The position numbers and the translations under genes are program-made. Source: an uncultured Candidatus Saccharibacteria bacterium (GTDB lineage: Bacteria; Patescibacteriota; Minisyncoccia; Phycocordibacterales; UBA9973). Taken from it: 50,006 bases of DNA. This document shows positions 10,873 to 26,809 of the stretch, one piece after another. Location of the stretch: NCBI GenBank assembly GCA_964454285.1, contig CAYVSW010000001.1, positions 1-50,006 on the forward strand, given 5' to 3'. The notes below the pieces were generated by a model, which saw only the letters and a list, made by a program, of their open reading frames with translations, had not been told where the DNA came from and did not search any database. Each line of letters starts with the position of its first letter. Position 1 is the stretch's first letter.

Positions 10873-10946
10873 TGGGGTGTCGTCTAATGGTAGGACAACG
10901 GTTTCTGGTACCGTTTATTGAGGTTCGAGTCCTTGCACCCCAGCCA
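10873..10946 (+). tRNA. tRNA-Gln (CUG), copy 1, CCA encoded
   Basis: Acceptor TGGGGTG/CACCCCA, anticodon stem ACGGT/ACCGT with loop TTCTGGT, T loop TTCGAGT, 3' GCCA. Confidence 0.9.
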
Positions 10947-11087: not shown

Positions 11088-11168
11088 AAAGTGCGATATC
11101 ATTAAATTAGAAATCGTTGTTGTGTTGTGGGTCTTACTTTTTTATTAAGATTATTTTTTATATTATAT

Positions 11169-14100
11169 ATGCCTAAGAAAGCAGTTACTTTTTTAAAATC
11201 ATTTGCTAGTGTACTCACAATTTTCAGTCTTTTATTAACTCCTGTAAGTCTTGCGTTTGCGCAAGAAGTACCAAAAATTGAAGTTATTTCTTCTGAAGAA
11301 CTTCAAACAGATATATCAACCCCTATATTTGATACAGGAAATACAGTTGATATAACAGCAGAAACACTGACTGATGAAATAAAAACTCTTTCAGATCCAA
11401 ATAAATATGACAATGATTATTTAGATAAAGCATATCTTGATCCTAATAGTCCCTTTTATGATCCAGAACATAAAGAACCCGAGGATATTACCCAAAGTAA
11501 TGACGACACAACAAAAGATTCTGATAAACAAATAGCTTCAAGAAGTGCCACTGTTAGTCAGAATACTTTAATTTTAAACAGCAATACACAACGCGACACT
11601 ATTCGCCCAGAAATTGATCAAACTACTGGTGCGCTTGTATATAACTATCCTATAGAGACACCTGACGGTATTAATGGTTTAAACCCAAAATTAAGACTCA
11701 TTTACAATTCTCAGAATACAAAAAATGATTCTGTATATGGATATGGATGGTCAAGTAATATTCCTTATATTGAACGAATAAATAAGCATGGTACAGATCA
11801 GCTTTATACAGGAACTTATGACGATTATGTATCGTCAACTTTTGGTGAGCTTGTAAAAAACACCAGTACTCAGTATGTTCCAAAGTCAGCATCAGATATT
11901 GTTAACTTTTCTTTTAATAGTAATGTTTGGACATATACTGATAAACAAGGAACTGTTTATACTTATGGTGGGACATCGGCTTCTCGCCAAGATGATCCAG
12001 GAAACTCATCACACATTTCTAAGTGGATGTTGAGTTCAATAACTGACTCAGATGGGAATAGTATTACCTATACCTATTTGAAGGATCAGGGTCAGATATA
12101 TCCACAAATAATTAATTATGGAATCTATGAACTTGGTTTTAATCTCCAAGCACGTACTGATGTTACTGATAGTTATGCAAAAGGATTTTTAGTAAATACA
12201 AGATTTGTTCTTGGTGGAATTTCTTTGCGTAAGGTAACAAGTCCAACTTCTGCACCAACTACACAAGCGAACATGCTAGTTGTTGGAGGAGGCGGTGGTG
12301 GAGGAGCTGGAGGATCTAATAGAGGGCATTATGGAGGAGGGGGTGCAGGTGGATATAAAGCGTTTACTAATCAAGTGATTGTTCCTGCAACAGCATATCC
12401 AATTGTAATTGGCGATGGTGGTAATGGAAATTATAATGGACAGGGATCAAATGGAGGTAATACAACATTTAATAATATTACTGCAACAGGCGGTGGTGGT
12501 GGAGCGACTTATAATTCAAATGGTAGTAATGGTGGATCTGGCGGCGGCGGAGGTTCAGGTATTGGAGGAAACGCAAATCTGTATGAAGGTAATGATGGTG
12601 GAGCAGGTGCTACATATGCAGGTGGTGGCGGCGGAGGTAGTGGTTCTACGGGTAGTAGTGGTAGTGGTTCTGGTGGAACAGGTGGTACTGGTACGCTAAA
12701 TTCAATAAATGGATCTTCTGTTTATTACGCAGCAGGTGGCGGCGGCGGAGCACGAACTGGCGGCGGTGGAACGGGAGGTACTGGCGGTGGTGGAAATGGT
12801 GGATCTACTGGCCCCGGAGGATCTGCTACAGGGTATGGATCAGGTGGAGGTGGTGCTGGTTGGTATAATTATTCTGGTGGAAATGGTAGTTCTGGAATTG
12901 TGATTATTTCATATAAGACAGATGGTAGTGATGGAATTGATTCTTCATTATCTACAGGTGGAACAAAAACTACTTCTGGTTCTTATACTATTCATACATT
13001 CACAAGTAATGGCACATTAAATCTTATCCCAATTGCTCCAAGTGGATCAACCCTTCTTAAAAATTATGCAATTACATATACAACAGGACATAATGGTGTA
13101 CGAGCAGTACTTTCTTCAATTACTCCAAGTGCATATGATATAAATAATACCCTTACTACATTACCTTCGACTTCATTTACATATAACAAAGCGTCTTCAG
13201 GTGTTGCAACATATAGTTCAAGTCCTTCAATTTCTGGAATGTTCCCGGGAACTATAAATAACGGAGTTGTTCTTGGTGATGTAAATGGAGATGCCTATAC
13301 CGATATTATCAAATCATATGATTACTATGGGTATAGTAATGTAGGAAATTTTACTGATCACGCAGTTTATACGTTCAACCCAGTAACAGATACCTATAGT
13401 ACAAGTTCTTATACTATACCTACTGATATAATTAATTTTATACAAAATGCAGGTTCAAAATATGATGGCGGAACTCGAGTAGTTGATCTCGATGGTAATA
13501 TGGCTCCAGACCTTGTCAGAACTCCATATTACAATCCAACCAATAGTACTGCTTCCGCTGAACAGCATAATGGAACGGGATGGACTCATTTAACAAGTGG
13601 TTCTCCTTCGTATTATCCACCATATGCATCAAACCCGTTTTATACAGTATTCTCTGGTGATTTCAATGGCGATGGATTAACTGATTACATGCAGGATGTA
13701 CAAGCATGGCCGGCCACAACACCAACTACAAGTCTGTCGGTTAACAACGGTTCTTCCTTTACTACAAGTGGATCTACGTTCACAGGAACACATACATTTA
13801 ATACAGGAGATGATAGATGGTTAATGTTTGATCTTAATGGAGACGGCTTGGATGATTTAATAAAAGCTGATACTACAATACCGTGTAGCGGAACTACAAC
13901 ATATGATCAGCAAGTATATATAAACAACGGAACAACATGGGTGCGTGATTATTCTTACCAACTTCCGCAGTACTTTACAATTTACAATATCGGTTGTTAT
14001 TCGTCGTCTCGATTACCAATAGAAATTGGTGACTTCAATGGTGATGGTCTAACTGATATTATGGATATCAACGCTCAAAGTCTCTATATCAATCAAGGTA

Positions 14101-17100
14101 AGAGTTTTAGTGTTATTGGAAACCCAGGAGTAGGATTTTATAACTCTATGGCCGGCGCGTCAGCTGCTTGTACTAATTGCTCAAACCCATATCTAATTTA
14201 CGATATTAATGCGGATGGTTCACCAGATATTATCAATAATACTGGAACTTGGATGTGGGATAACACCATAACAACACCGACTGATTTAATGTCAGCTATT
14301 ACTCTTCCAGCAGGAGGTTTAATGGCTGTGACATATCAATCAAGCCCTAAATATGAAGATGGTAGTGGAAACTCATTAAACCCAACCAATCCAGTATTTT
14401 TGCAGACAGTAAAGAGTATTGCGACAACCGATCCTGTTACAAGTACAACTACTACAACAAATTACGAATATGCAGGCGGATCATATTATTACAATACGCC
14501 ATTTGATAGAAAATTTGCTGGCTTTGAAAAAGTTACAGAAATACGTCCTGATAGTACAAAGGTTGTTAATTACCATCTCCAAGGAAATGGTACAAACAGT
14601 TCATATTATGAGTACTCAGATAATGTTGGAAAGATCGGGTATGTCTATAGAACAGATGTGCTTGATACTAGTAATGCATTAGTTTCTCGTACAACAACCA
14701 AATACGATTCAGCTAATCCTGTGACAGGCGCATACTTTGTATACCCAACACAAACAGTCAGTGAAAATAGTGGGGTCAATACTGCGAAAACATACAGCTA
14801 CAACATCACAACAGGCACACTCACAAGCGCCGTCGATTATGGAATTGTCACTGTTACCGATCCACTCACATTTACTGACACAGGCACAGACAAAAAAACA
14901 ACCAACTATACCTATGCAACCAATGGAACTATCTATAAAGTTTCAAACCAGACAACACTTGATCAATCAAGCGCAAAGGTAAATGAGACTAATCTATACT
15001 ACGACAATCAAACGCTTGGTACTGTTATAAAAGGAAATAATACTAAAACAGAGCAATGGAAGGTTGGTACTACGTATGTAAACACTCAAAAGTCATACAG
15101 TACATATGGTAATGTCCTTACTGCAACAGACGAGCGAGGAAAAGTAACTGCTTACGCATATGATAGTTATAACCTCTATCCTATAACCGTTACCGACCCA
15201 TTAACTCGAACAACTCAGTACGCCTATGACTACAACACAGGAAAGCCAACACAGATAACTGATCAAAATGGTTATATCTACCAAACATCATATGATGGTT
15301 TTGGACGAGTACTTGAGCAAAAAGTTCCTGACCTTGCGACTCCATCTACTCTCGTAACAAAGACAACATACAGCTACACTAATACCCCAAACAATGTTTC
15401 AACCTACAAGACTGATTATCTTGATGGATCAACTACAATTGATAGCTATCAGTACTTTGATAGTCTCGGAAGACTAATTCAAGATCGTAGTGAAGCCGAA
15501 GTTTCTGGTACCTTTAATGTTAAGGATGTTACTTACAACAATGTTGGACTACTACAAAGTGAATCAATACGATACACAGGAAGTGGATCTGCTCGTACAG
15601 CCCCAACAACAAATACAACACTCTATAACACCTATACCTATGATCAGCTCAATCGAATACTGACAAGTGTAAATGCTCTCGGTACAACGAGTTATGTCTA
15701 TACAGGACTCAAAACTGCGATTACTGATGCAAATGGAAAAGTGAAGAATTACTACAACGATGCCTATGGCAATTTGGTAAAGGTAGAAGAAATCAATGCT
15801 GGTTCAACATACACCACAACATATACATGGAATCTCAATAATAAACTTACCAACATCACCGATGCACTCGCTAATGTTCGAAACTTCACTTATGACGGTC
15901 TTGGACGAAGACTCACTGCACAAGATCTTCATGCCTCAGCTGATACAACATTTGGTACTTGGACATATACGTATGATGATGCAGGAAATCTCACCCAGAC
16001 GCTTGATCCAAAGAGTCAAACGGTTAACTACACCTACGACGACCTCAATCGAGTGCTTACTGAAGACTACACAGGGCAAGCCGGTATTGAAGTTACCTAC
16101 ACCTACGATGTTGGAACGGGTAATCTTGGAAAGCTCACGAGTGTTGTAAATCCTGCAAGTACGAGAGCGTACATCTATAACTCAAACGGTGGTTTGAAAC
16201 AAGAAACAGATACACTCAATTCGGTAAATTACGTAACAACATACGATTACGATCGACAAGGTAACCAAGTTACTATTACCAATCCAGATAACTCACAAGT
16301 AAAGTACACCTACAATACTGCTGGACTGCTTGAACAAGTACAAAGAAAAGAATCAACTGATGGATCGTTCATCAACGTCATTACAAATTTTGACTATAAC
16401 CCTGATGGAAAGATTGTCACAACAACAAATGCGAACAGCACAACTACAACAAATACCTATGATGCGACCAAGCTATATCGATTAACTCACAAAGTCACTA
16501 CAGGTCCAGGTGCAGGTGGTACTCCAACAACAGTATCATTCTTCCCACAAGCAGGAGACGGTATGGTCACTTCAAATGCGTCAGCAACATGGGCAACCAT
16601 ACATGATGGCACTACAGGATCTGCTGCTGCCGCTACAGCGACAACATTTAATGTTGACTCAGGTAAATCATCTTCAACAAACTACAAGATTGAGCGTGGG
16701 TTCCTTGCATTCGATACTTCTTCACTTCCAGACAATGCAGTGATTAGTAGTGCAAAACTAAAACTTATCCCTAACTCAAAATTAAATAATGATAACGATG
16801 GAGATGATTGGATAACGGTAACTCAAGGTACCCAAGCAAGCCCTACAACACTCGGAACTGCTGATTACAACAAAGCAGGTCTAGCAACACTTCCTGTAGA
16901 AGGCATCTACAATACAGAGCGAAAAGATATCACTAACATAACTACAGGATTGTATCTTGCATTCAATTTGAACCCAACAGGTAAAACATGGATCTCTACG
17001 ACAGGGTCAACGTTACTTGGTCTTCGTGAAGGACACGATGCTATTAACAGTGCATTTACCGGTACTTCTGGTCAGTATGATCAAGTGATATTTAGATCAG

Positions 17101-18689
17101 GAGAATATACTGGCACCACAAGTGACCCAGTACTTGAAGTTACTTACTACACCACCACTCCTGCTCCTACAACAATCCAAGATCTTACCTATACCTATGA
17201 CAACGTCGGCAATATCACTCAAATAGTTGACGCGTCAGGTACCGATACTGCAAAGACTATTGCATACAGCTATGATGATCTCTACAGACTACTCTCTGCT
17301 ACCATCACAGGAGCTGTAAATGGGGATAACAGTACCAAGACATATATCTACAACGCGATTGGTAACATGCTTACTTCTGACGCAGGTACCTATACCTATG
17401 CAGGTACGGGTTATGCGAACCCACACGCTGTCACAGGGCTCGCTGGGTCAACCTATACCTACGACAATAGTGGAAACCTCACAGGAGACGGTACATGGAC
17501 ATATACCTGGGATTACAACAACCAGCTTCTCCAGAGCTCAAAGAGTGGAGTCACAAGCTCATATACCTACGATGCTAAAGGGCAGAGAGTTAAACAAGTC
17601 TCTCCAACATTTGGTACTGTCTATTATCCAACTCTTTCCTATAGTACAGATGGCACCACACCAACGAAACAAATAATGGTAGGAGACATATCTATAGGAA
17701 CAGTGAAAGGTACTGGTGCAAGTGCTGTTATGTACTATAACCATGCAGATCAATTGCAAAGTACAAACATCGTCACAAACCAATCTGGTCAAATGGTTGA
17801 GCTCATGGATTATCAACCGTATGGAGCTATGAGAATAGATTGGCAGTACAATAACAACTTTGATCAGTCTAAAAAATACATCAACAGAGAATACGATAGA
17901 GACAGCCAGCTTCTGTATCTTCAAGCGAGGTATATGAATCCAGGTATTGCGAAGTTCTTGAGTCAGGATCCAACACATTTGTCTATAGGAAATCCGAGCG
18001 CTGTTCAATCTTTGACTGGTAAGGATATGAAGATATATCTTTCTGATCCACAACAATTCAATTCTTATGCATATGCTCGAAACAATCCTATAGTTAATAG
18101 TGACCCAACGGGCAACGCAACATATATATGGAATAATGGTGCCGGAATGTCAGGAATTGATACTTGGGATACGAATACTTACTATCAATCTAGTGACCGA
18201 GCATTACTTCAAAAAAATGCTGTTGAAATGAGTTCAGCGGGTAATTACGCAAACCTCGGTGCATTTTATGATCGTGTACGCAATGGTGCACAGTGGGATT
18301 ATAAGAATCAGGATCGAGCCTATTATTTCTATGGAAGTGATCTTGTTGATAAAGAAACATTTGGAAATAGAAATTATGGGTACACTGGTACAGCAGCGGG
18401 TTTTGGGAAGACATTACTAAAAAGTGCTGCGGGTTATGCCCAAGTACGATCAGGTAATGCTCAATTAAAAGATGTAAGAACATTTTTTGACGATCCAAAG
18501 GATACGGCTAATATCCAGATTGGAATTTTGTCCTACAATAATGGCAACAGAGTAACTCCTGCGAGTGGGTTACAGATAGGTAAGCAGACTACAGTAAATA
18601 GTAAGGTTCTAAATTCGGTTTATCGACAGTTTCAAAGTATACAAAAAAAGATTAGTAACCTTGCTAAGAAATTAGGAAAATCAAATTAA
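11169..18689 (+). CDS. Giant secreted RHS/YD-repeat polymorphic toxin, Tc-toxin B/C fusion-like. Order: signal peptide, SpvB-like N-domain, Gly-rich insert, FG-GAP/VCBS repeats, RHS shell with an inserted domain, Rhs core, C-terminal toxin tip.
   Basis: Signal peptide MPKKAVTFLKSFASVLTIFSLLLTPVSLAFA/QE. SpvB-like motif TGALVYNYPIETPDGINGLNPKLRLIYNSQ...GYGWS. Six D-x-[ND]-x-D-G-x-x-D repeats (GDVNGDAYTDII ... YDINADGSPDII). Dozens of YD repeats (YxYDxxGxL). Core YLQARYMNPGIAKFLSQDP...NSYAYARNNPIVNSDPTGN. ATG 11169 is preferred to GTG 11127. Confidence 0.9.
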   Translation: MPKKAVTFLKSFASVLTIFSLLLTPVSLAFAQEVPKIEVISSEELQTDISTPIFDTGNTVDITAETLTDEIKTLSDPNKYDNDYLDKAYLDPNSPFYDPEHKEPEDITQSNDDTTKDSDKQIASRSATVSQNTLILNSNTQRDTIRPEIDQTTGALVYNYPIETPDGINGLNPKLRLIYNSQNTKNDSVYGYGWSSNIPYIERINKHGTDQLYTGTYDDYVSSTFGELVKNTSTQYVPKSASDIVNFSFNSNVWTYTDKQGTVYTYGGTSASRQDDPGNSSHISKWMLSSITDSDGNSITYTYLKDQGQIYPQIINYGIYELGFNLQARTDVTDSYAKGFLVNTRFVLGGISLRKVTSPTSAPTTQANMLVVGGGGGGGAGGSNRGHYGGGGAGGYKAFTNQVIVPATAYPIVIGDGGNGNYNGQGSNGGNTTFNNITATGGGGGATYNSNGSNGGSGGGGGSGIGGNANLYEGNDGGAGATYAGGGGGGSGSTGSSGSGSGGTGGTGTLNSINGSSVYYAAGGGGGARTGGGGTGGTGGGGNGGSTGPGGSATGYGSGGGGAGWYNYSGGNGSSGIVIISYKTDGSDGIDSSLSTGGTKTTSGSYTIHTFTSNGTLNLIPIAPSGSTLLKNYAITYTTGHNGVRAVLSSITPSAYDINNTLTTLPSTSFTYNKASSGVATYSSSPSISGMFPGTINNGVVLGDVNGDAYTDIIKSYDYYGYSNVGNFTDHAVYTFNPVTDTYSTSSYTIPTDIINFIQNAGSKYDGGTRVVDLDGNMAPDLVRTPYYNPTNSTASAEQHNGTGWTHLTSGSPSYYPPYASNPFYTVFSGDFNGDGLTDYMQDVQAWPATTPTTSLSVNNGSSFTTSGSTFTGTHTFNTGDDRWLMFDLNGDGLDDLIKADTTIPCSGTTTYDQQVYINNGTTWVRDYSYQLPQYFTIYNIGCYSSSRLPIEIGDFNGDGLTDIMDINAQSLYINQGKSFSVIGNPGVGFYNSMAGASAACTNCSNPYLIYDINADGSPDIINNTGTWMWDNTITTPTDLMSAITLPAGGLMAVTYQSSPKYEDGSGNSLNPTNPVFLQTVKSIATTDPVTSTTTTTNYEYAGGSYYYNTPFDRKFAGFEKVTEIRPDSTKVVNYHLQGNGTNSSYYEYSDNVGKIGYVYRTDVLDTSNALVSRTTTKYDSANPVTGAYFVYPTQTVSENSGVNTAKTYSYNITTGTLTSAVDYGIVTVTDPLTFTDTGTDKKTTNYTYATNGTIYKVSNQTTLDQSSAKVNETNLYYDNQTLGTVIKGNNTKTEQWKVGTTYVNTQKSYSTYGNVLTATDERGKVTAYAYDSYNLYPITVTDPLTRTTQYAYDYNTGKPTQITDQNGYIYQTSYDGFGRVLEQKVPDLATPSTLVTKTTYSYTNTPNNVSTYKTDYLDGSTTIDSYQYFDSLGRLIQDRSEAEVSGTFNVKDVTYNNVGLLQSESIRYTGSGSARTAPTTNTTLYNTYTYDQLNRILTSVNALGTTSYVYTGLKTAITDANGKVKNYYNDAYGNLVKVEEINAGSTYTTTYTWNLNNKLTNITDALANVRNFTYDGLGRRLTAQDLHASADTTFGTWTYTYDDAGNLTQTLDPKSQTVNYTYDDLNRVLTEDYTGQAGIEVTYTYDVGTGNLGKLTSVVNPASTRAYIYNSNGGLKQETDTLNSVNYVTTYDYDRQGNQVTITNPDNSQVKYTYNTAGLLEQVQRKESTDGSFINVITNFDYNPDGKIVTTTNANSTTTTNTYDATKLYRLTHKVTTGPGAGGTPTTVSFFPQAGDGMVTSNASATWATIHDGTTGSAAAATATTFNVDSGKSSSTNYKIERGFLAFDTSSLPDNAVISSAKLKLIPNSKLNNDNDGDDWITVTQGTQASPTTLGTADYNKAGLATLPVEGIYNTERKDITNITTGLYLAFNLNPTGKTWISTTGSTLLGLREGHDAINSAFTGTSGQYDQVIFRSGEYTGTTSDPVLEVTYYTTTPAPTTIQDLTYTYDNVGNITQIVDASGTDTAKTIAYSYDDLYRLLSATITGAVNGDNSTKTYIYNAIGNMLTSDAGTYTYAGTGYANPHAVTGLAGSTYTYDNSGNLTGDGTWTYTWDYNNQLLQSSKSGVTSSYTYDAKGQRVKQVSPTFGTVYYPTLSYSTDGTTPTKQIMVGDISIGTVKGTGASAVMYYNHADQLQSTNIVTNQSGQMVELMDYQPYGAMRIDWQYNNNFDQSKKYINREYDRDSQLLYLQARYMNPGIAKFLSQDPTHLSIGNPSAVQSLTGKDMKIYLSDPQQFNSYAYARNNPIVNSDPTGNATYIWNNGAGMSGIDTWDTNTYYQSSDRALLQKNAVEMSSAGNYANLGAFYDRVRNGAQWDYKNQDRAYYFYGSDLVDKETFGNRNYGYTGTAAGFGKTLLKSAAGYAQVRSGNAQLKDVRTFFDDPKDTANIQIGILSYNNGNRVTPASGLQIGKQTTVNSKVLNSVYRQFQSIQKKISNLAKKLGKSN
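17515..17572 (+). repeat. 58-nt segment of the main rhs gene repeated at the 5' junction of the downstream orphan
   Basis: Matches 19320-19377 with 2 mismatches; both encode NNQLLQSSKSGVTSSYTYD. Confidence 0.9.
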
Positions 18690-18695
18690 ATCAAA

Positions 18696-19259
18696 ATGAA
18701 AAAAATATCTAAAAAAATAATATTAATAAGTGGGTTAGTGTTAATAATTGCCATTATTGTTGGGCGTGTTTACTTTAATGGTGGTAATGCAAAAGATTTA
18801 AGAATTGTTAATTCGTTGGAAAAAAATGTTCTTCCTTACATTCAACAAAATAAAGTATCTTTTTACTTTAATATGGATTGGTGTAAAGGTCTTCAGTATG
18901 ACTCTCGTTCAGTAGTAGAGATTTCTAGTTCAAGTAATAATTCGTCGTGCTTAAACAATGCTTCAACATTTTCTGATTCTGACCGTTCAATTTTTAATGA
19001 AATTGGTAAAAAATTGAGCTTTGTTTCTGTAGGAAAATTTAGAGAAATTGATACGGAATATCCAATAAGTTATAGGGGTGAACAAGTAAATATCCCTCAT
19101 GAATCAATAGGTTTAGCTTTCCATACGGATTGTTCTTTCTGTAGAATCCGCTATGTTTACTGGCCACAGTATACCGAGCTACCGCCCAGTATTGATGGAG
19201 AAATTAAATACATTCCTATCAATGAAAACTGGTATAGAGTTGAGCAAGATTGGAATTAA
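18696..19259 (+). CDS. Putative cognate immunity protein (N-terminal membrane anchor)
   Basis: Starts 7 nt after the rhs stop. TM segment KIILISGLVLIIAIIVG. Call rests on position; no family recognised. Confidence 0.55.
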   Translation: MKKISKKIILISGLVLIIAIIVGRVYFNGGNAKDLRIVNSLEKNVLPYIQQNKVSFYFNMDWCKGLQYDSRSVVEISSSSNNSSCLNNASTFSDSDRSIFNEIGKKLSFVSVGKFREIDTEYPISYRGEQVNIPHESIGLAFHTDCSFCRIRYVYWPQYTELPPSIDGEIKYIPINENWYRVEQDWN

Positions 19260-19270
19260 CTCCACTATAA

Positions 19271-19924
19271 GTCAACATTCTTTTAAGAAAAAAGTGTTAC
19301 AATCACACTAGTTCTTTAAACAACAACCAGCTCCTCCAGAGCTCAAAGAGTGGAGTCACAAGTTCATATACCTACGACGATCTCAACCGACTTCTGACTG
19401 CAACAATCACCTCAGTACCAACAGGACAGACTACCTATACACAAACCTATGTATATAATGCAATTGGAAATATAACCTCTGGTCCAGTTGGAACATATGT
19501 TTATAACGGTTCAAGTGGTTCAAACTGGGCTAACCCTCATGCAGCGACATCTATAAATGGTGTTACAAATACCTACGACAAGGATGGAAACAATACAGGA
19601 GACGGAACACTCACAAATACATGGAACTATAAAGACCAACTTACAAGAACTGTAAAAGGTGCAACAACAATTGACTATCTATATGACTATACTGGAGACC
19701 GTTCATCATATACTGACGGCACTACAACTACTGATTATGCCAACAAGTACTATAACTATGATGGTGCAAAGAAAGTTAAACAAATATTTGCTGGCAATCA
19801 ACTAGTTGGAACAATAGAGACAGTAGGAGCTACAGTATCTCCATACTATGTTCATACAGATACTGTTCTCGGTTCAAATGTAATATCAGATGGAACTGGT
19901 GCAAAGAATCAACTCCTTGACTAT
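19271..19924 (+). pseudogene. Start-less in-frame 5' part of the orphan Rhs cassette (YD repeats)
   Basis: Same frame as 19925-20767 and open back to TAA 19268-19270. No ATG, GTG or TTG codon in 218 codons. Encodes YD repeats paralogous to main-gene residues around nt 17275-17600. Confidence 0.75.
19320..19377 (+). repeat. Orphan-side copy of the 58-nt rhs homology
   Basis: See 17515-17572. Confidence 0.9.
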
Positions 19925-20767
19925 ATGCCGTTTGGAAAAGTGAGAATTAATCAGCAAGCAACCAGTTTCAACGAGAAAAATCAATTTATAGGACAGGAGT
20001 ATGACGAAGACACACAATTATCCTATCTTAACGCTCGTTACTATAATGGGGCTAGGGGTCAGTTTATAAGCCAAGATCCAGTATTCTGGGAGATTGGACA
20101 GTCTAAAGAAGGAATGAGTGCTCTATCTGATCCTCAATCAATGAATAGTTATTCCTATGCAGGAAATAATCCGATTAAAAATTCGGATCCTGACGGAAGA
20201 TGGTATAAGGAAGTTCTAACTGGTCAGCAATCCTGGTCTAGTTTCTCGGGAGAAGTAGGTCAAGCAACCCAATACATGGGTAGTGGGTGGCAGACAGCAA
20301 TGGATCATCCTGTTGCAGCAGGGGCAGCAGTTGGAGTTGGATCAGGATTAGCGGCATATGGAGCCGCCGCAGGACTTACTGCTCTTAGTACTCAATATCT
20401 TGGTGGAGCAGGTACGGCATGTGTAGCACTATGCAATCAAAATGGACAAAAACTAGTTGAGCAAGGAATATCAAATCTACAACAGTTACCAAGGGTGGTC
20501 ACTGCAACAGAAAAAATGGTAGAGCGGGGTCCAAATAAGGATATAGTTGGAATTAATAATTTCCTACAACAAGCACAAAAGGGTACAGCTTACTTGGATA
20601 ACAAAACAGGTAATATAAATATCTTTTCTAAGATAGGGGATAGTGCTAGGTACACAAGAACTACTCTTAATCCAGAGGGGAATAAAATTATTTCAGCTGG
20701 TATTAATCAGGCAAGAAATGTTATTAATGGTATTTCAAACGGACGCTTTACTAAGATTACTAAATAA
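19925..20767 (+). CDS. RHS repeat-associated core plus an alternative C-terminal toxin tip (orphan module; ORF as callable from its first ATG)
   Basis: Core motifs QEYDEDTQLSYLNARYYNGARGQFISQDP...NSYSYAGNNPIKNSDPDGR, followed by a 189-aa tip unrelated to the main tip and containing a Gly/Ala-rich hydrophobic stretch VAAGAAVGVGSGLAAYGAAAGLTAL. Confidence 0.8.
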   Translation: MPFGKVRINQQATSFNEKNQFIGQEYDEDTQLSYLNARYYNGARGQFISQDPVFWEIGQSKEGMSALSDPQSMNSYSYAGNNPIKNSDPDGRWYKEVLTGQQSWSSFSGEVGQATQYMGSGWQTAMDHPVAAGAAVGVGSGLAAYGAAAGLTALSTQYLGGAGTACVALCNQNGQKLVEQGISNLQQLPRVVTATEKMVERGPNKDIVGINNFLQQAQKGTAYLDNKTGNINIFSKIGDSARYTRTTLNPEGNKIISAGINQARNVINGISNGRFTKITK

Positions 20768-20784
20768 TATAAAATTAAAACAAC

Positions 20785-21078
20785 ATGAAAAACTTTATTG
20801 ACCTCATAGAATCATTCATAGAAGGAAAAATTGACTTCAAAGAATTTGATAAAAATTGGCAAAAATTATATATAGGCTCATCAGATAAAGGTGAACTCTA
20901 TGAGGCTTTGTCAGAATCAGAGAAGGATTTTCTTGATGAGATACATGATAAAGAGGATTTAGCTACCAAAGATGAAAAGGAATTACAGGATTTGAAAAAA
21001 TACAACTTTATTTCTGTAAAGGAATTTAAAGAGTGGCTAAAAGATTATAAACAAAAGAATATTGAAATCTGGAAATAG
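20785..21078 (+). CDS. Putative immunity protein for the orphan toxin (small acidic helical protein)
   Basis: Lies 17 nt after the orphan stop. The N-terminal pattern LIESFIEGKIDFKEFDKNWQKLY recalls colicin-type (ImmD-like) immunity proteins, from memory. Confidence 0.55.
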   Translation: MKNFIDLIESFIEGKIDFKEFDKNWQKLYIGSSDKGELYEALSESEKDFLDEIHDKEDLATKDEKELQDLKKYNFISVKEFKEWLKDYKQKNIEIWK

Positions 21079-21354: not shown

Positions 21355-21600
21355 ATGGATACAGGATATTGGCAACCATTATCAGGTTTAGTCATAGGTT
21401 TATTATTAGTAATCCTATTCTGTCTTCTTTATACGCGCTGGAGAAAAAAGCCTGTTCAATGGATTACAAAGCATATATTTCGAAGCCAGCTCATGAGCGA
21501 AAAGTCTGCAACTGGTCTTTATAATGTAATGATAAGTTTTATACCAGTGATAGGTGTAATATGGATTTTTTCAGCACTTCTGTATTTGAGGGTTCTGTAA
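21355..21600 (+). CDS. Hypothetical small membrane protein (2 TM)
   Basis: 81-aa ORF with two hydrophobic helices. Confidence 0.4.
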   Translation: MDTGYWQPLSGLVIGLLLVILFCLLYTRWRKKPVQWITKHIFRSQLMSEKSATGLYNVMISFIPVIGVIWIFSALLYLRVL

Positions 21601-21803
21601 AAAGTGAAAAAATAAGCACTAATGATAGTTGGGTAGTAAATACAAGTATAAGTGATGTATATGATTTCAATCCTGTAAATCCTCAAACATACAAGGGTGC
21701 AATTACAAAATTACCCGCTGGACAGGCACATAAAGATCAAGGCAGTGGTATTTTAAGTAATTACAATGTAAATATTCAATTTAGTGATAAAATTAACAAA
21801 TAG
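21561..21803 (+). CDS. Hypothetical 80-aa protein, possibly the remnant tip of a third toxin module
   Basis: Short ORF (frame opens only at 21525), followed 2 nt later by a membrane-anchored ORF in the same arrangement as the two toxin/immunity pairs upstream. Confidence 0.3.
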   Translation: MDFFSTSVFEGSVKSEKISTNDSWVVNTSISDVYDFNPVNPQTYKGAITKLPAGQAHKDQGSGILSNYNVNIQFSDKINK

Positions 21804-21805
21804 TT

Positions 21806-22321
21806 ATGAAAAATAAAAAGATACCATATGTATTAATAATACCTTTACTGATAATAGCAATTTTTGCTTTTAGTTATTATTATTTTATCAGAATTCCAAA
21901 TAAAAAAATTGCAGAAAGATGTATTCAATATGATCGTGAATGGGCGAATTTGGAAGATTGCTATGGTTTAATTTCACTTCGTTATGGTTGGGATATTGAT
22001 TATTATTACTTATTGGATCACATTCATGATTACGAAATTGCGAGAATCTATAACCTTGATCAATACATTTACGAAAACAATAAAATTTTCGTGATCAATC
22101 GCAAGACCATAGAAAACAGCTCATCTAACGGAATTAAGACTACCTATTATCAGGAACTGTTTCAGAACGGTAAGTTGTCAGATAATCCCTATAGTGAAAT
22201 TTCAGACATACCAACTTTCCTGGTTGTAGATACTGTTTCTGGTGAAGTACAAGCATATAAAAATATCACTGATGTTCCGAGTGATCAACAGAGCTATTTT
22301 ACCAAAATCAATAACCAGTAG
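21806..22321 (+). CDS. Hypothetical membrane-anchored protein (candidate orphan immunity protein)
   Basis: N-terminal TM segment IPYVLIIPLLIIAIFAFSYYYFI, then a Tyr/Asp-rich soluble domain. Confidence 0.5.
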   Translation: MKNKKIPYVLIIPLLIIAIFAFSYYYFIRIPNKKIAERCIQYDREWANLEDCYGLISLRYGWDIDYYYLLDHIHDYEIARIYNLDQYIYENNKIFVINRKTIENSSSNGIKTTYYQELFQNGKLSDNPYSEISDIPTFLVVDTVSGEVQAYKNITDVPSDQQSYFTKINNQ

Positions 22322-26700: not shown

Positions 26701-26738
26701 ATCTTAAAACTAGCTATCTTTGAGCTAGCTCAAGTTTG

Positions 26739-26809
26739 CTGGGGTGCAAGGACTCGAACCTCAATAGACGGTACCAGAAACCGTAGTCCTACCATTAGAC
26801 GACACCCCA
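26739..26809 (-). tRNA. tRNA-Gln (CUG), copy 2, inverted relative to copy 1
   Basis: The reverse complement matches 10873-10943 at 69 of 71 positions. The two differences are at tRNA positions 26 and 44. CCA is not encoded. Confidence 0.9.

What the first reader, a model, noticed from the sequence alone, without database searches (positions are those of the whole stretch)
18099..19259. Unassigned 190-aa C-terminal toxin tip after the DPxG core boundary, paired with a membrane-anchored immunity candidate
The Rhs core ends ...NNPIVNSDPTGN (18099-18116). The following 190 aa are unrelated to the repeats: WDYKNQDRAYYFYGSDLVDKETFGNRNYGYTGTAAGFGKTLLKSAAGYAQVRSG.... The GNxNYGxxGxAxGF...AGxAQ pattern reminds me of the Ntox44-type polymorphic toxin domain, but I cannot verify that here. 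The next gene starts 7 nt downstream and has an N-terminal TM anchor. That is unusual if the toxin is a cytoplasmic nuclease and hints at an envelope target or membrane-tethered neutralisation. This toxin/immunity pair may be novel.
Basis: partly seen in the sequence, partly recalled or inferred. Interest (0 to 1): 0.7.

Follow-up and report, generated by a model that had tools for sequence, protein, structure and literature searches.

The report
Rhs Ntox44 toxin with membrane-tethered immunity
The end of a giant secreted Rhs protein carries a toxin domain of a known family (Ntox44), followed by a protective partner gene of an unnamed family that is anchored on the outside of the cell membrane; across this toxin family such exported partners turn out to be the rule, which sits badly with its usual label of "RNase".

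Summary
The Rhs core ends at ...NSDPTGN (18099-18116). A 190-aa tip follows (18117-18686). A 187-aa ORF with an N-terminal membrane anchor starts at 18696.

The tip is not unassigned. It is a clear Ntox44 domain (Pfam PF15607, E 1.7e-15) with all three family motifs: DxK, GNxxxG and DDPxD.

The downstream protein has no Pfam or NCBIfam family and no structural match in the PDB. Only 12 relatives exist among 5.8 billion proteins. Six of the eight distinct relatives with readable context sit directly after an Ntox44 tip. Toxin and partner diverge together, and the module is bounded by a 58-nt recombination repeat. It is therefore very probably the cognate immunity protein, oriented N-in/C-out.

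A membrane-tethered partner is not unusual for this family. In 80 unrelated Ntox44 loci, 19 of 22 downstream protein families are TM-anchored, lipoproteins or polytopic, against a 30% background. Ntox44 also occurs fused to peptidoglycan-binding and lysozyme-like domains, and as bare Sec-secreted proteins.

This favours action at the cell envelope. It conflicts with the "predicted RNase" label and with the reported RNase activity of TseR.

Verdict: an ordinary Rhs cassette with a new immunity family. The side result about the whole family is more interesting than the locus.

The parts
11169..18689 (+). Rhs/YD-repeat polymorphic toxin gene. It is 2506 aa from ATG 11169; the mechanical ORF starts at GTG 11127 and gives 2520 aa. 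Domain order: SpvB/TcB-like, glycine-rich, FG-GAP, RHS repeats, core, Ntox44.
   Evidence: ORF list. Pfam RHS_repeat 7 stretches E 1.2e-25, SpvB 6.3e-17, Gly_rich_2 7.6e-19, FG-GAP_3, Ntox44. The library protein P0014 is 2506 aa.
11169..11261 (+). Predicted Sec signal peptide MPKKAVTFLKSFASVLTIFSLLLTPVSLAFA|QE.
   Evidence: Read from the translation and flagged by the N-terminal hydropathy scan. The cleavage site is inferred from the AxA rule and was not computed with a dedicated predictor.
17515..17572 (+). Left copy of a 58-nt direct repeat, inside the Rhs gene. It marks the upstream recombination boundary of the toxin-immunity cassette.
   Evidence: the repeat finder family D4, 97% identical to 19320-19377.
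17811..18113 (+). Rhs-associated core domain, ending in the DPTG self-cleavage-type motif.
   Evidence: TIGR03696 E 4.7e-13, residues 38-138 of the segment starting at 17700.
18099..18116 (+). SDPTGN, the core/tip boundary named in the finding.
18117..18686 (+). 190-aa C-terminal toxin tip. AF2 model: mean pLDDT 87.2, pTM 0.81, mostly helical with short hairpins.
18264..18542 (+). Ntox44 (PF15607) core, tip residues 50-142.
   Evidence: Pfam E 1.7e-15, 57.7 bits against a cut-off of 24. 747 relatives by exhaustive HMMER.
18297..18305 (+). DxK motif (D61, K63).
   Evidence: 98% and 97% conserved in 149 relatives. The motif is listed for Ntox44 in PMC3482391.
18363..18380 (+). GNxxxG motif (G83 N84 ... 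G88).
   Evidence: 98-99% conserved.
18489..18503 (+). DDPxD acidic motif (D125 D126 P127 K128 D129). It is the probable metal site.
   Evidence: 89-99% conserved. The metal role is inferred.
18597..18686 (+). C-terminal cationic amphipathic helix (tip residues 161-190), shared only with the closest ~20 relatives.
   Evidence: Hydrophobic moment 0.65-0.69, 7 K/R and 0 D/E. AF2 helix 163-189. Extent of matches.
18696..19259 (+). Candidate cognate immunity gene, 187 aa, of an unnamed family.
   Evidence: No Pfam or NCBIfam hit. 12 relatives. 6 of 8 contexts lie directly after Ntox44. Co-divergence r = 0.93.
18717..18773 (+). Signal-anchor / TM helix (residues 8-26), predicted N-in/C-out.
   Evidence: Hydropathy 2.63. 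N-flank +4/0 and C-flank +2/-1, with the same pattern in all 11 full-length relatives. AF2 helix 6-51.
18882..19142 (+). Span holding the four invariant cysteines of the ectodomain: C63, C85 and C146-x-x-C149.
   Evidence: Alignment A1. Exactly these four are conserved in all members.
19320..19377 (+). Right copy of the 58-nt direct repeat, at the start of the displaced orphan Rhs fragment.
19320..20767 (+). Orphan Rhs C-terminal fragment with no start of its own. It has its own ...NSDPDGR boundary and a different ~185-aa tip without a Pfam family.
   Evidence: Frame translation. No Pfam hit for 19925-20764.
20785..21078 (+). 97-aa soluble, acidic ORF after the orphan tip. It is a probable cytoplasmic immunity protein and serves as an internal contrast to the membrane-anchored one.
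   Evidence: Weak Colicin_immun PF09204 hit, E 0.0057, below the gathering score. No hydrophobic N-terminus.

Best explanation
This is the toxin-immunity cassette at the end of a Sec-exported Rhs (YD-repeat) polymorphic toxin. The genome is probably a Saccharibacteria-like (Patescibacteria) bacterium. The tip is a member of the known Ntox44 family. The gene 6 nt downstream encodes its cognate immunity protein, from a small, previously unnamed family. That protein is anchored by one N-terminal helix, with a cysteine-containing beta-rich domain on the outer face of the membrane.

Proposed mechanism, with shown and inferred steps marked:
1. The Rhs protein is exported by Sec. The signal peptide was read from the sequence; export is inferred.
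2. The YD shell encloses the tip and cuts it free at DPTG|N. The motif is shown; the cleavage is inferred from what is known of Rhs/TcC proteins.
3. The tip is delivered to a neighbouring cell and acts at or near the outer face of the cytoplasmic membrane. The most likely form is a metal-dependent enzyme using D61/K63/N84/DDPxD on a membrane-proximal envelope substrate, such as a lipid-linked cell-wall precursor or the wall itself. This is inferred from family-wide context.
4. Producer and kin are protected because the tethered ectodomain binds the tip where it arrives. This is inferred.
5. The cassette moves by recombination in the conserved core-coding region, displacing the previous tip downstream. 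This is shown by the 58-nt repeat and by the orphan copy in a related genome.

Confidence by step: Ntox44 Rhs tip plus cognate immunity about 0.9; N-in/C-out topology about 0.8; envelope site of action about 0.55.
For: Identity of the tip:
- Pfam Ntox44, E 1.7e-15.
- The motifs are conserved in 149 relatives.

Rhs architecture.

Immunity assignment:
- The start is 6 nt after the toxin stop.
- There are 12 relatives only.
- They lie directly after Ntox44 tips in the window, L002/L003, L005, L089/L090, L091 and L093, at down to 37-45% identity.
- Toxin and partner identities co-vary, r = 0.93 over 15 pairs.
- In a Ca. Saccharibacteria MAG the same module is an orphan cassette behind another Rhs.
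- A 58-nt, 97% identical repeat brackets the module.

Topology: the positive-inside pattern holds in 11 of 11 full-length members.

Envelope action:
- In 67 Ntox44 loci with a downstream ORF, 19 of 22 sequence families have a TM anchor, a lipobox or several TM segments. The background in the same loci is 30%, binomial P about 8e-8.
- The same holds in annotated Enterobacter, Pantoea, Serratia, Mitsuaria, Bacillus and Clostridium genomes.
- Ntox44 is fused to 2-4 PG_binding_1 domains and a GH25-like Rv2525c domain in clostridial plasmids. It is fused to LysM and choline-binding repeats elsewhere.
- 27 of 127 complete representatives are just a Sec signal plus Ntox44.
- Corals acquired a secreted copy (PMC8162421).
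- The orphan tip in the same window has a soluble partner instead.
- The tip has a cationic amphipathic C-terminal helix.
Against: - The one characterised member, TseR of Yersinia pseudotuberculosis (PAAR-Ntox44), is reported as a divalent-cation-dependent RNase that is toxic inside HeLa cells. I know this only through a review and a preprint; the primary paper was not readable.
- Pfam and the 2012 survey call the family a predicted RNase.
- 9 of 146 representatives are fused to phage MuF. MuF-linked toxins are usually thought to be injected into the cytoplasm.
- No structural match gives any enzymatic clue.
- Membrane and lipoprotein calls rest on my hydropathy and lipobox scripts and on automatic choice of the downstream ORF, not on dedicated predictors.
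- The 80 loci were recruited with two peptide patterns, so they sample only part of the family.
- The taxon of the window is inferred from the closest relative only.
Confidence: 0.6

Rival explanations
1. The tip is a cytoplasm-acting, metal-dependent RNase, as Pfam predicts and as reported for TseR. On this view the membrane-anchored partner still gives immunity, by one of two routes. It could capture the toxin at the cell surface before import. Alternatively, against the positive-inside prediction, it could face the cytoplasm.
For: TseR (PAAR-Ntox44) is described as a divalent-cation-dependent ssRNA-preferring RNase. The family is labelled a predicted RNase. The conserved acidic cluster and Lys fit a metal-dependent phosphodiesterase. 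MuF, PAAR and Rhs carriers can deliver into the cytoplasm.
Against: At least a dozen partner proteins carry lipoprotein signal peptides with a lipobox cysteine, so they are certainly exported. Partners are membrane-associated in 19 of 22 families. Many Ntox44 proteins are bare secreted domains with no translocation module. Some are fused to cell-wall-binding and lysozyme-like domains. The model shows no similarity to any nuclease structure in the PDB. The nuclease-type orphan tip next door has a soluble partner.
Confidence: 0.28
2. The tip is not an enzyme but a membrane-disrupting toxin. It would bind the membrane through its glycine-rich helices and cationic amphipathic tail. The immunity protein would block insertion in the plane of the membrane.
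For: Several Ntox44 partner families are small polytopic membrane proteins with 3-5 TM segments, as for pore-forming colicins. The tip has an amphipathic, +7 C-terminal helix and Gly/Ala-rich helices at residues 79-111.
Against: The invariant residues are polar or charged (D61, K63, N84, Q109, D125, D129) and look like an active site. The Gly-rich helices carry N, R and K and are not hydrophobic enough to span a membrane. The amphipathic tail is absent from most of the family. Fusion to a second cell-wall hydrolase domain suggests an enzyme module.
Confidence: 0.08
3. The downstream ORF is not an immunity gene. It would be an unrelated conserved membrane protein, or an accessory factor for export or maturation of the Rhs protein.
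For: Two relatives lie without an adjacent tip: L004, and L087/L088 directly after a housekeeping nucleoside-diphosphate kinase gene. No binding evidence exists.
Against: It travels with the tip rather than with the Rhs body. In L002 it follows an orphan tip while the main Rhs there has another tip and another partner. It lies inside the repeat-bounded cassette. It co-diverges with the tip. It is extremely rare, with 12 relatives and 1 of 185,579 species genomes, unlike a general export factor. L004 places it within a run of small genes that includes a DUF4265 protein, which looks like a poly-immunity array.
Confidence: 0.04

Closest known systems
Ntox44 (Pfam PF15607, 'Bacterial toxin 44'; NCBI 'polymorphic toxin type 44 domain'). 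The characterised member is TseR of Yersinia pseudotuberculosis.
   Same: The HMM match is well above threshold. The DxK, GNxxxG and DxxxD motifs are present. The domain lies at the C-terminal end of a polymorphic toxin carrier and is largely helical.
   Different: The carrier is a Sec-exported Rhs in a Saccharibacteria-like genome, not a T6SS PAAR protein. The tip has extra N-terminal (1-45) and C-terminal amphipathic (145-190) segments, found only in about 20 close relatives. The reported RNase activity of TseR was not testable here and fits poorly with the exported partners of the family.
Rhs/YD-repeat polymorphic toxins with orphan toxin-immunity cassettes (the enterobacterial Rhs systems; the TcB-TcC shell of ABC toxins).
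   Same: It has RHS repeats, SpvB and FG-GAP N-terminal parts, an Rhs-associated core ending in DPxG, a variable tip, an immunity gene directly downstream, a displaced orphan tip with its own partner, and a recombination repeat in the core-coding region.
   Different: It has a Sec signal peptide and no T6SS or TcA genes nearby; the neighbours are housekeeping genes. It carries a large glycine-rich insertion. The host is a monoderm-like candidate-phyla bacterium (inferred).
TelC-TipC (the Streptococcus intermedius LXG lipid II phosphatase and its outward-facing anchored immunity protein) and colicin M-Cmi. This comparison is from my own knowledge, not from a tool.
   Same: The logic is the same: an exported toxin with an aspartate-rich, metal-dependent site acts outside the cytoplasm and is neutralised by an immunity protein tethered to the outer face of the membrane.
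   Different: There is no sequence or structural similarity. The Foldseek search of the PDB gave nothing at E <= 0.001. The substrate of Ntox44 is unknown. This is an analogy of mechanism only, not membership.
DUF5412 (PF17428), here the commonest partner of Ntox44.
   Same: It takes the same genomic position directly after Ntox44. It also has an N-terminal TM or lipoprotein signal and a small beta-rich exported domain.
   Different: The window's protein has no DUF5412 hit. Profile-profile comparison gives a probability of 2.8%. It lacks the GATT motif and has four invariant cysteines instead.

Membership tests
Ntox44 (PF15607) | Profile HMM score above Pfam's gathering threshold | tested here: met
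   57.7 bits against a cut-off of 24, E 1.7e-15, profile positions 2-104 of 104.
Ntox44 (PF15607) | Conserved motifs DxK, GNxxxG and DxxxD (Zhang et al. 2012) | tested here: met
   D61-Y-K63, G83-N84-R-N-Y-G88 and D125-D-P-K-D129 are present, each 89-99% conserved in 149 relatives.
Ntox44 (PF15607) | All-alpha fold | tested here: inconclusive
   The AF2 model (pLDDT 87) is mainly helical but has five short strands. No solved Ntox44 structure exists to compare with.
Ntox44 (PF15607) | C-terminal position in a polymorphic toxin, followed by an immunity gene | tested here: met
   It lies after the Rhs core, with a partner ORF 6 nt downstream.
Ntox44 (PF15607) | RNase activity (predicted for the family, reported for TseR) | not testable with these tools
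   Only literature statements are available. Genomic context argues against a cytoplasmic target.
Rhs / YD-repeat polymorphic toxin | RHS repeats and an Rhs-associated core ending in a DPxG motif | tested here: met
   PF05593, 7 stretches, E 1.2e-25. TIGR03696, E 4.7e-13, ending at DPTG.
Rhs / YD-repeat polymorphic toxin | Modular tip exchange with orphan cassettes | tested here: met
   58-nt 97% repeat at 17515 and 19320, with an orphan fragment plus partner downstream. The same module is an orphan in L002.
Rhs / YD-repeat polymorphic toxin | Autoproteolytic release of the tip | not testable with these tools
   Only the motif was seen.
Cognate immunity protein of a polymorphic toxin | Conserved adjacency to the same toxin family across divergent loci | tested here: met
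   6 of 8 distinct relatives lie directly after Ntox44, and the 2 others are orphan-like. r = 0.93 between toxin and partner identities.
Cognate immunity protein of a polymorphic toxin | Physical binding and neutralisation of the toxin | not tested
An experiment is needed.
DUF5412 (PF17428) and the named Pfam Imm families | Profile match | tested here: not met
   No Pfam or NCBIfam family for 18696-19256. hhalign against a DUF5412-like alignment gives probability 2.8%.
TelC / colicin M type lipid II-cleaving toxins | Sequence or fold similarity to TelC or ColM catalytic domains | tested here: not met
   No PDB sequence hit at E <= 10. No Foldseek hit at E <= 0.001.

The most novel reading that the evidence does not exclude
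Ntox44 as a whole family is mis-labelled. On this reading it is not a cytoplasmic RNase but a metal-dependent enzyme that attacks the cell envelope from outside the cytoplasm. A possible mode is binding the diphosphate of lipid-linked wall precursors through its DDxxD-like motif. That would explain four things. Its partners are almost always lipoproteins, anchored ectodomains or polytopic membrane proteins. It is fused to peptidoglycan-binding and lysozyme-like modules. It works as a bare secreted protein. Corals could domesticate it. The window's 187-aa protein would then be a new class of outward-facing immunity protein in Saccharibacteria.
Probability: 0.45. Interest if true: 0.7.

Novelty: new member of a known kind. 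Interest (0 to 1): 0.45.

Why it matters
For the locus itself the gain is modest. It adds an unnamed immunity family to a known toxin family. It also documents an Rhs toxin arsenal with cassette exchange in a Saccharibacteria-like episymbiont, a group whose means of competing with or attacking other cells are little known.

The wider point matters more. Ntox44 is counted as an RNase in Pfam, in T6SS/T7SS effector catalogues and in microbiome profiling. If its site of action is really the envelope, those annotations mislead. Toxicity assays should then use periplasmic targeting. The coral homologue would make sense as a secreted antibacterial enzyme. The family would offer a new enzymatic activity against the bacterial cell wall pathway.

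Tried and rejected
- Sequence search of the tip and of its 38-sequence profile against all PDB chains found no hit at E <= 10.
- Foldseek of the confident tip model against the PDB and against BFVD gave nothing at E <= 0.001. The immunity model gave the same result against the PDB. No fold-based function could be assigned.
- NCBIfam gave only noise for both proteins.
- The word-indexed protein search found just one relative of the tip. The exhaustive search was needed.
- Two apparent multi-domain 'hits', P0078 and P0087 with 17-18 stretches, are glycine/asparagine-rich beta-propeller repeats. They are false positives.
- The genome scan with the immunity family found a single species genome.
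- The first metagenome scan failed because the alignment was too diverse and was repeated with a tighter one.
- Homology of the window's immunity family to DUF5412-like partners was rejected.
- A possible link through a shared C-terminal ...NWYxV motif to other partner families reached only 44-54% probability and was chosen post hoc. I leave it open.
- The context of a PAAR-Ntox44 protein was uninformative, with no same-strand downstream gene.
- The TseR primary paper and its immunity protein could not be read.
- Cluster look-ups gave no organism names.
- Promoter and terminator scans were at chance level.

Full report
**What is there.**
The window holds one very long + strand ORF, 11127..18689. 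The likely start is ATG 11169, which gives the 2506-aa protein found in the public library. Pfam finds, in order:
- an SpvB/TcB-like region;
- a glycine-rich domain;
- FG-GAP repeats;
- seven RHS repeat stretches;
- Ntox44 at the extreme C-terminus.

The N-terminus reads as a classical Sec signal peptide, MPKK...SLAFA|QE. NCBIfam's Rhs-associated core model ends exactly at the G of ...NNPIVNSDPTG, and SDPTGN is encoded by 18099-18116. After it come 190 codons and a TAA at 18687-18689. Six bases later an ATG at 18696 opens a 187-codon ORF that runs to 19259. The finding's coordinates, quoted peptide and spacing are all correct.

**The tip.**
The 190-aa tip matches Pfam PF15607 (Ntox44) over the whole profile (positions 2-104 of 104) at E 1.7e-15 and 57.7 bits, against a gathering score of 24. 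The 2012 survey that defined the family lists it as all-alpha with motifs DxK, GNxxxG and DxxxD, and names no immunity family for it (PMC3482391).

All three motifs are present: D61-Y-K63, G83-N84-x-x-x-G88 and D125-D-P-K-D129. Each is 89-99% conserved in 149 relatives cut from an exhaustive HMMER search, which found 747 relatives at E <= 0.001.

AlphaFold2 with a 38-sequence alignment gives a confident model: pLDDT 87.2, pTM 0.81, mostly helices with short hairpins. Neither a sequence profile nor Foldseek finds a relative among solved structures or viral models. The fold therefore gives no clue to activity.

Residues 1-45 and 145-190 lie outside the Pfam core and are shared only with about 20 close relatives. 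The last 30 residues form a strongly amphipathic helix with seven basic and no acidic residues.

**The downstream gene.**
The 187-aa product has no Pfam or NCBIfam family and no structural match. It has only 12 relatives among 5.8 billion clustered proteins. It occurs in one of 185,579 species-representative genomes, a Candidatus Saccharibacteria MAG.

All 11 full-length members share these features:
- a 19-residue hydrophobic segment near the N-terminus;
- two to four basic and no acidic residues before that segment;
- a neutral or acidic flank after it;
- exactly four invariant cysteines: C63, C85 and C146-x-x-C149.

By the positive-inside rule the protein is N-in/C-out, so the beta-rich domain faces outward. 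The AF2 model has pLDDT 84.5, but only two of the five models were confident.

**Is it the immunity gene?**
Among the eight distinct relatives with readable context, six lie directly after an ORF with a full-length Ntox44 match:
- the window itself;
- L002/L003;
- L005;
- L089/L090;
- L091;
- L093.

This holds down to 37-45% identity. Pairwise identities of tips and partners rise and fall together (r = 0.93 over 15 non-independent pairs).

In the Saccharibacteria MAG the module is an orphan cassette. It comprises the end of the core, the tip and the partner, at 71-79% identity to the window. It sits behind a different Rhs gene that has its own tip and partner.

In the window the module is bracketed by a 58-nt, 97% identical direct repeat, at 17515-17572 inside the Rhs gene and at 19320-19377. 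The second copy starts a start-less Rhs fragment with its own ...NSDPDGR boundary and a different tip. That fragment is followed by a soluble 97-aa ORF with weak similarity to colicin immunity proteins. This is the textbook scar of tip displacement, and it shows that tip and partner move as one unit.

Two relatives lack an adjacent tip. One sits in a run of small genes behind an Rhs gene (L004). The other sits directly after a housekeeping ndk gene (L087/L088). Orphan immunity genes are common, so I read these as such.

**Is a membrane-anchored partner unusual?**
I tested this across the family. A metagenome scan with a tight Ntox44 alignment returned 80 loci.
- In 67 of them a same-strand ORF of at least 50 aa starts within 250 nt of the toxin stop, usually overlapping it by 1-7 nt.
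- These ORFs fall into 22 BLAST families.
- 19 of the 22 have an N-terminal TM anchor, a lipoprotein signal with a lipobox cysteine, or three to five TM segments.
- The three exceptions are doubtful ORFs.
- With the same hydropathy measure, 30% of the other long ORFs in these loci score positive. The binomial P for 19 of 22 is about 8e-8.
- The largest partner family is Pfam DUF5412.
- None of the 80 loci carries a relative of the window's partner.

Annotated genomes agree:

| Genome | Ntox44 protein | Downstream partner |
|---|---|---|
| Enterobacter hormaechei plasmid | 130 aa, next to hcp | TM-anchored |
| Pantoea | Ntox44 domain protein | TM-anchored |
| Serratia rubidaea | 137 aa | TM-anchored |
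| Mitsuaria | 182 aa | Lipoprotein |
| Bacillus toyonensis | 240 aa | Polytopic membrane protein |
| Clostridium botulinum p6CSt | Fused to peptidoglycan-binding domains | DUF5412 protein |

Tethered or exported partners are therefore the rule for Ntox44, not an oddity of this locus.

**What this says about mechanism.**
The family is called a predicted RNase. A review and a preprint report that TseR, a PAAR-Ntox44 effector of Yersinia pseudotuberculosis, is a divalent-cation-dependent RNase that is toxic to bacteria and HeLa cells. I could not read the primary paper.

Several independent observations point instead to action outside the cytoplasm:
- The partners are exported, and lipoproteins cannot be cytoplasmic.
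- In clostridial plasmids the domain is fused to two to four PG_binding_1 domains and to a GH25-like Rv2525c domain.
- Among 146 representatives it is also fused to LysM and to choline-binding repeats.
- 27 of 127 complete representatives are nothing but a Sec signal peptide, a short linker and the domain, with no module that could carry them across a membrane.
- Corals acquired an intron-bearing, signal-peptide-bearing copy, expressed where the polyp settles.

From general knowledge, antibacterial genes that eukaryotes borrow from bacteria are typically cell-wall enzymes. Toxins with anchored or polytopic immunity proteins, such as colicin M/Cmi, TelC/TipC and the pore-forming colicins, act at the membrane or on lipid-linked wall precursors.

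The conserved D/K/N/Q and DDPxD residues look like a metal-dependent active site. DDxxD is the Mg-diphosphate motif of isoprenoid enzymes. That similarity makes a lipid II or undecaprenyl-diphosphate substrate an attractive guess, but it is only a guess.

Points against the envelope reading:
- the TseR report;
- nine MuF fusions;
- my reliance on simple hydropathy scripts.

I put the envelope reading at about 0.55, the RNase reading at about 0.3, and a non-enzymatic membrane toxin at under 0.1.

**Most likely working of the locus.**
- The Rhs protein is exported by Sec (inferred).
- Its YD shell holds the tip and releases it at DPTG|N (motif shown, cleavage inferred).
- The tip reaches a neighbouring cell and acts at the outer face of the membrane or on the wall (inferred).
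- The producer and its kin carry the outward-facing, tethered partner, which binds the tip on arrival (inferred).
- New tips with their partners are swapped in by recombination within the conserved core-coding sequence (shown).

The surrounding genes are housekeeping: RF2, FtsEX, BipA, a DEAD helicase and CobW. No dedicated secretion system is encoded nearby.

**Comparison and novelty.**
The tip is a member of Ntox44, and every testable membership feature was met. The carrier is a standard Rhs polymorphic toxin with orphan cassettes.

The partner belongs to no described family. It is unrelated to DUF5412 (hhalign probability 2.8%). A shared C-terminal ...NWYxV motif with several other Ntox44 partner families gave only 44-54% probability and was noticed post hoc, so it stays open.

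The locus is thus a new member of a known kind. The interesting by-product is the family-wide conflict between the RNase label and the exported immunity proteins. A cytoplasm-versus-periplasm toxicity test would settle it.

Noticed in passing
window 17515-17572 and 19320-19377: A 58-nt direct repeat, 97% identical, brackets the Ntox44 tip and its partner gene. It looks like the recombination scar of a tip replacement that pushed the previous tip downstream.
   Followed up: yes
window 19320-21078: An orphan Rhs C-terminal fragment with its own NSDPDGR boundary and a ~185-aa tip that has no Pfam family. The tip has a Gly/Ala-rich hydrophobic stretch (AAGAAVGVGSGLAAYGAAAGLTAL). A soluble 97-aa ORF follows, with a weak, sub-threshold Colicin_immun hit (E 0.0057).
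   Followed up: partly
window 21561-22321: An 80-aa ORF that may be a tip remnant, followed at once by a 171-aa ORF with an N-terminal TM anchor and no Pfam family. This may be a third, decayed toxin-immunity cassette with another membrane-anchored partner.
   Followed up: no
window 10873-10946 (+) and 26738-26809 (-): Two tRNA-Gln(CTG) genes in opposite orientation flank the Rhs region. The first lies about 220 nt upstream of the Rhs start. This may mark an island boundary.
   Followed up: no
window 12255-12917 (Rhs residues 377-597): A long glycine-rich insertion (Pfam Gly_rich_2, E 7.6e-19) lies inside the N-terminal part of the Rhs protein, with internal short DNA repeats (families D1 and D3). 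Its role is unknown.
   Followed up: no
L094 4340-4720; L096 3754-4191; L097 3754-4218; L099 5392-5808; L100 516-914; many of L011-L084: DUF5412-like proteins with a shared GATT motif and an N-terminal TM or lipoprotein signal follow Ntox44 genes in Clostridium, Enterobacter, Pantoea, Serratia, Mitsuaria and gut metagenomes. DUF5412 appears to be the main, so far unlabelled, Ntox44 immunity family. No paper in the library mentions DUF5412.
   Followed up: partly
L095 2468-4321 and L094 3317-4324: Clostridial plasmid proteins combine PG_binding_1 repeats with a C-terminal Ntox44 domain, and in C. tyrobutyricum also a GH25-like Rv2525c domain. This is a lysin-like architecture.
   Followed up: partly
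L087 137-1286 / L088 21-1170: The most divergent relative of the window's partner protein (36% identity) sits 4 nt after a housekeeping nucleoside-diphosphate kinase gene, with no toxin on the contig. It is either an orphan immunity gene or a hint that the family has another role.
   Followed up: partly
C-termini of downstream proteins in L007-L010, L009, L022, L033, L044, L050, L062, L078, L079, L098 and window 19221-19256: Many otherwise dissimilar Ntox44 partner proteins end in a ...(I/L)xxxNWYx(V/Y)... motif like the window's PINENWYRVEQDWN. The profile comparison is only weakly supportive (probability 44-54%).
   Followed up: partly
proteins P0078 and P0087: Two ~2000-aa beta-propeller repeat proteins score against the tip through 17-18 weak stretches. 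This is a compositional artefact and shows that summed repeat hits can pass E <= 1e-11 in the representative search.
   Followed up: yes
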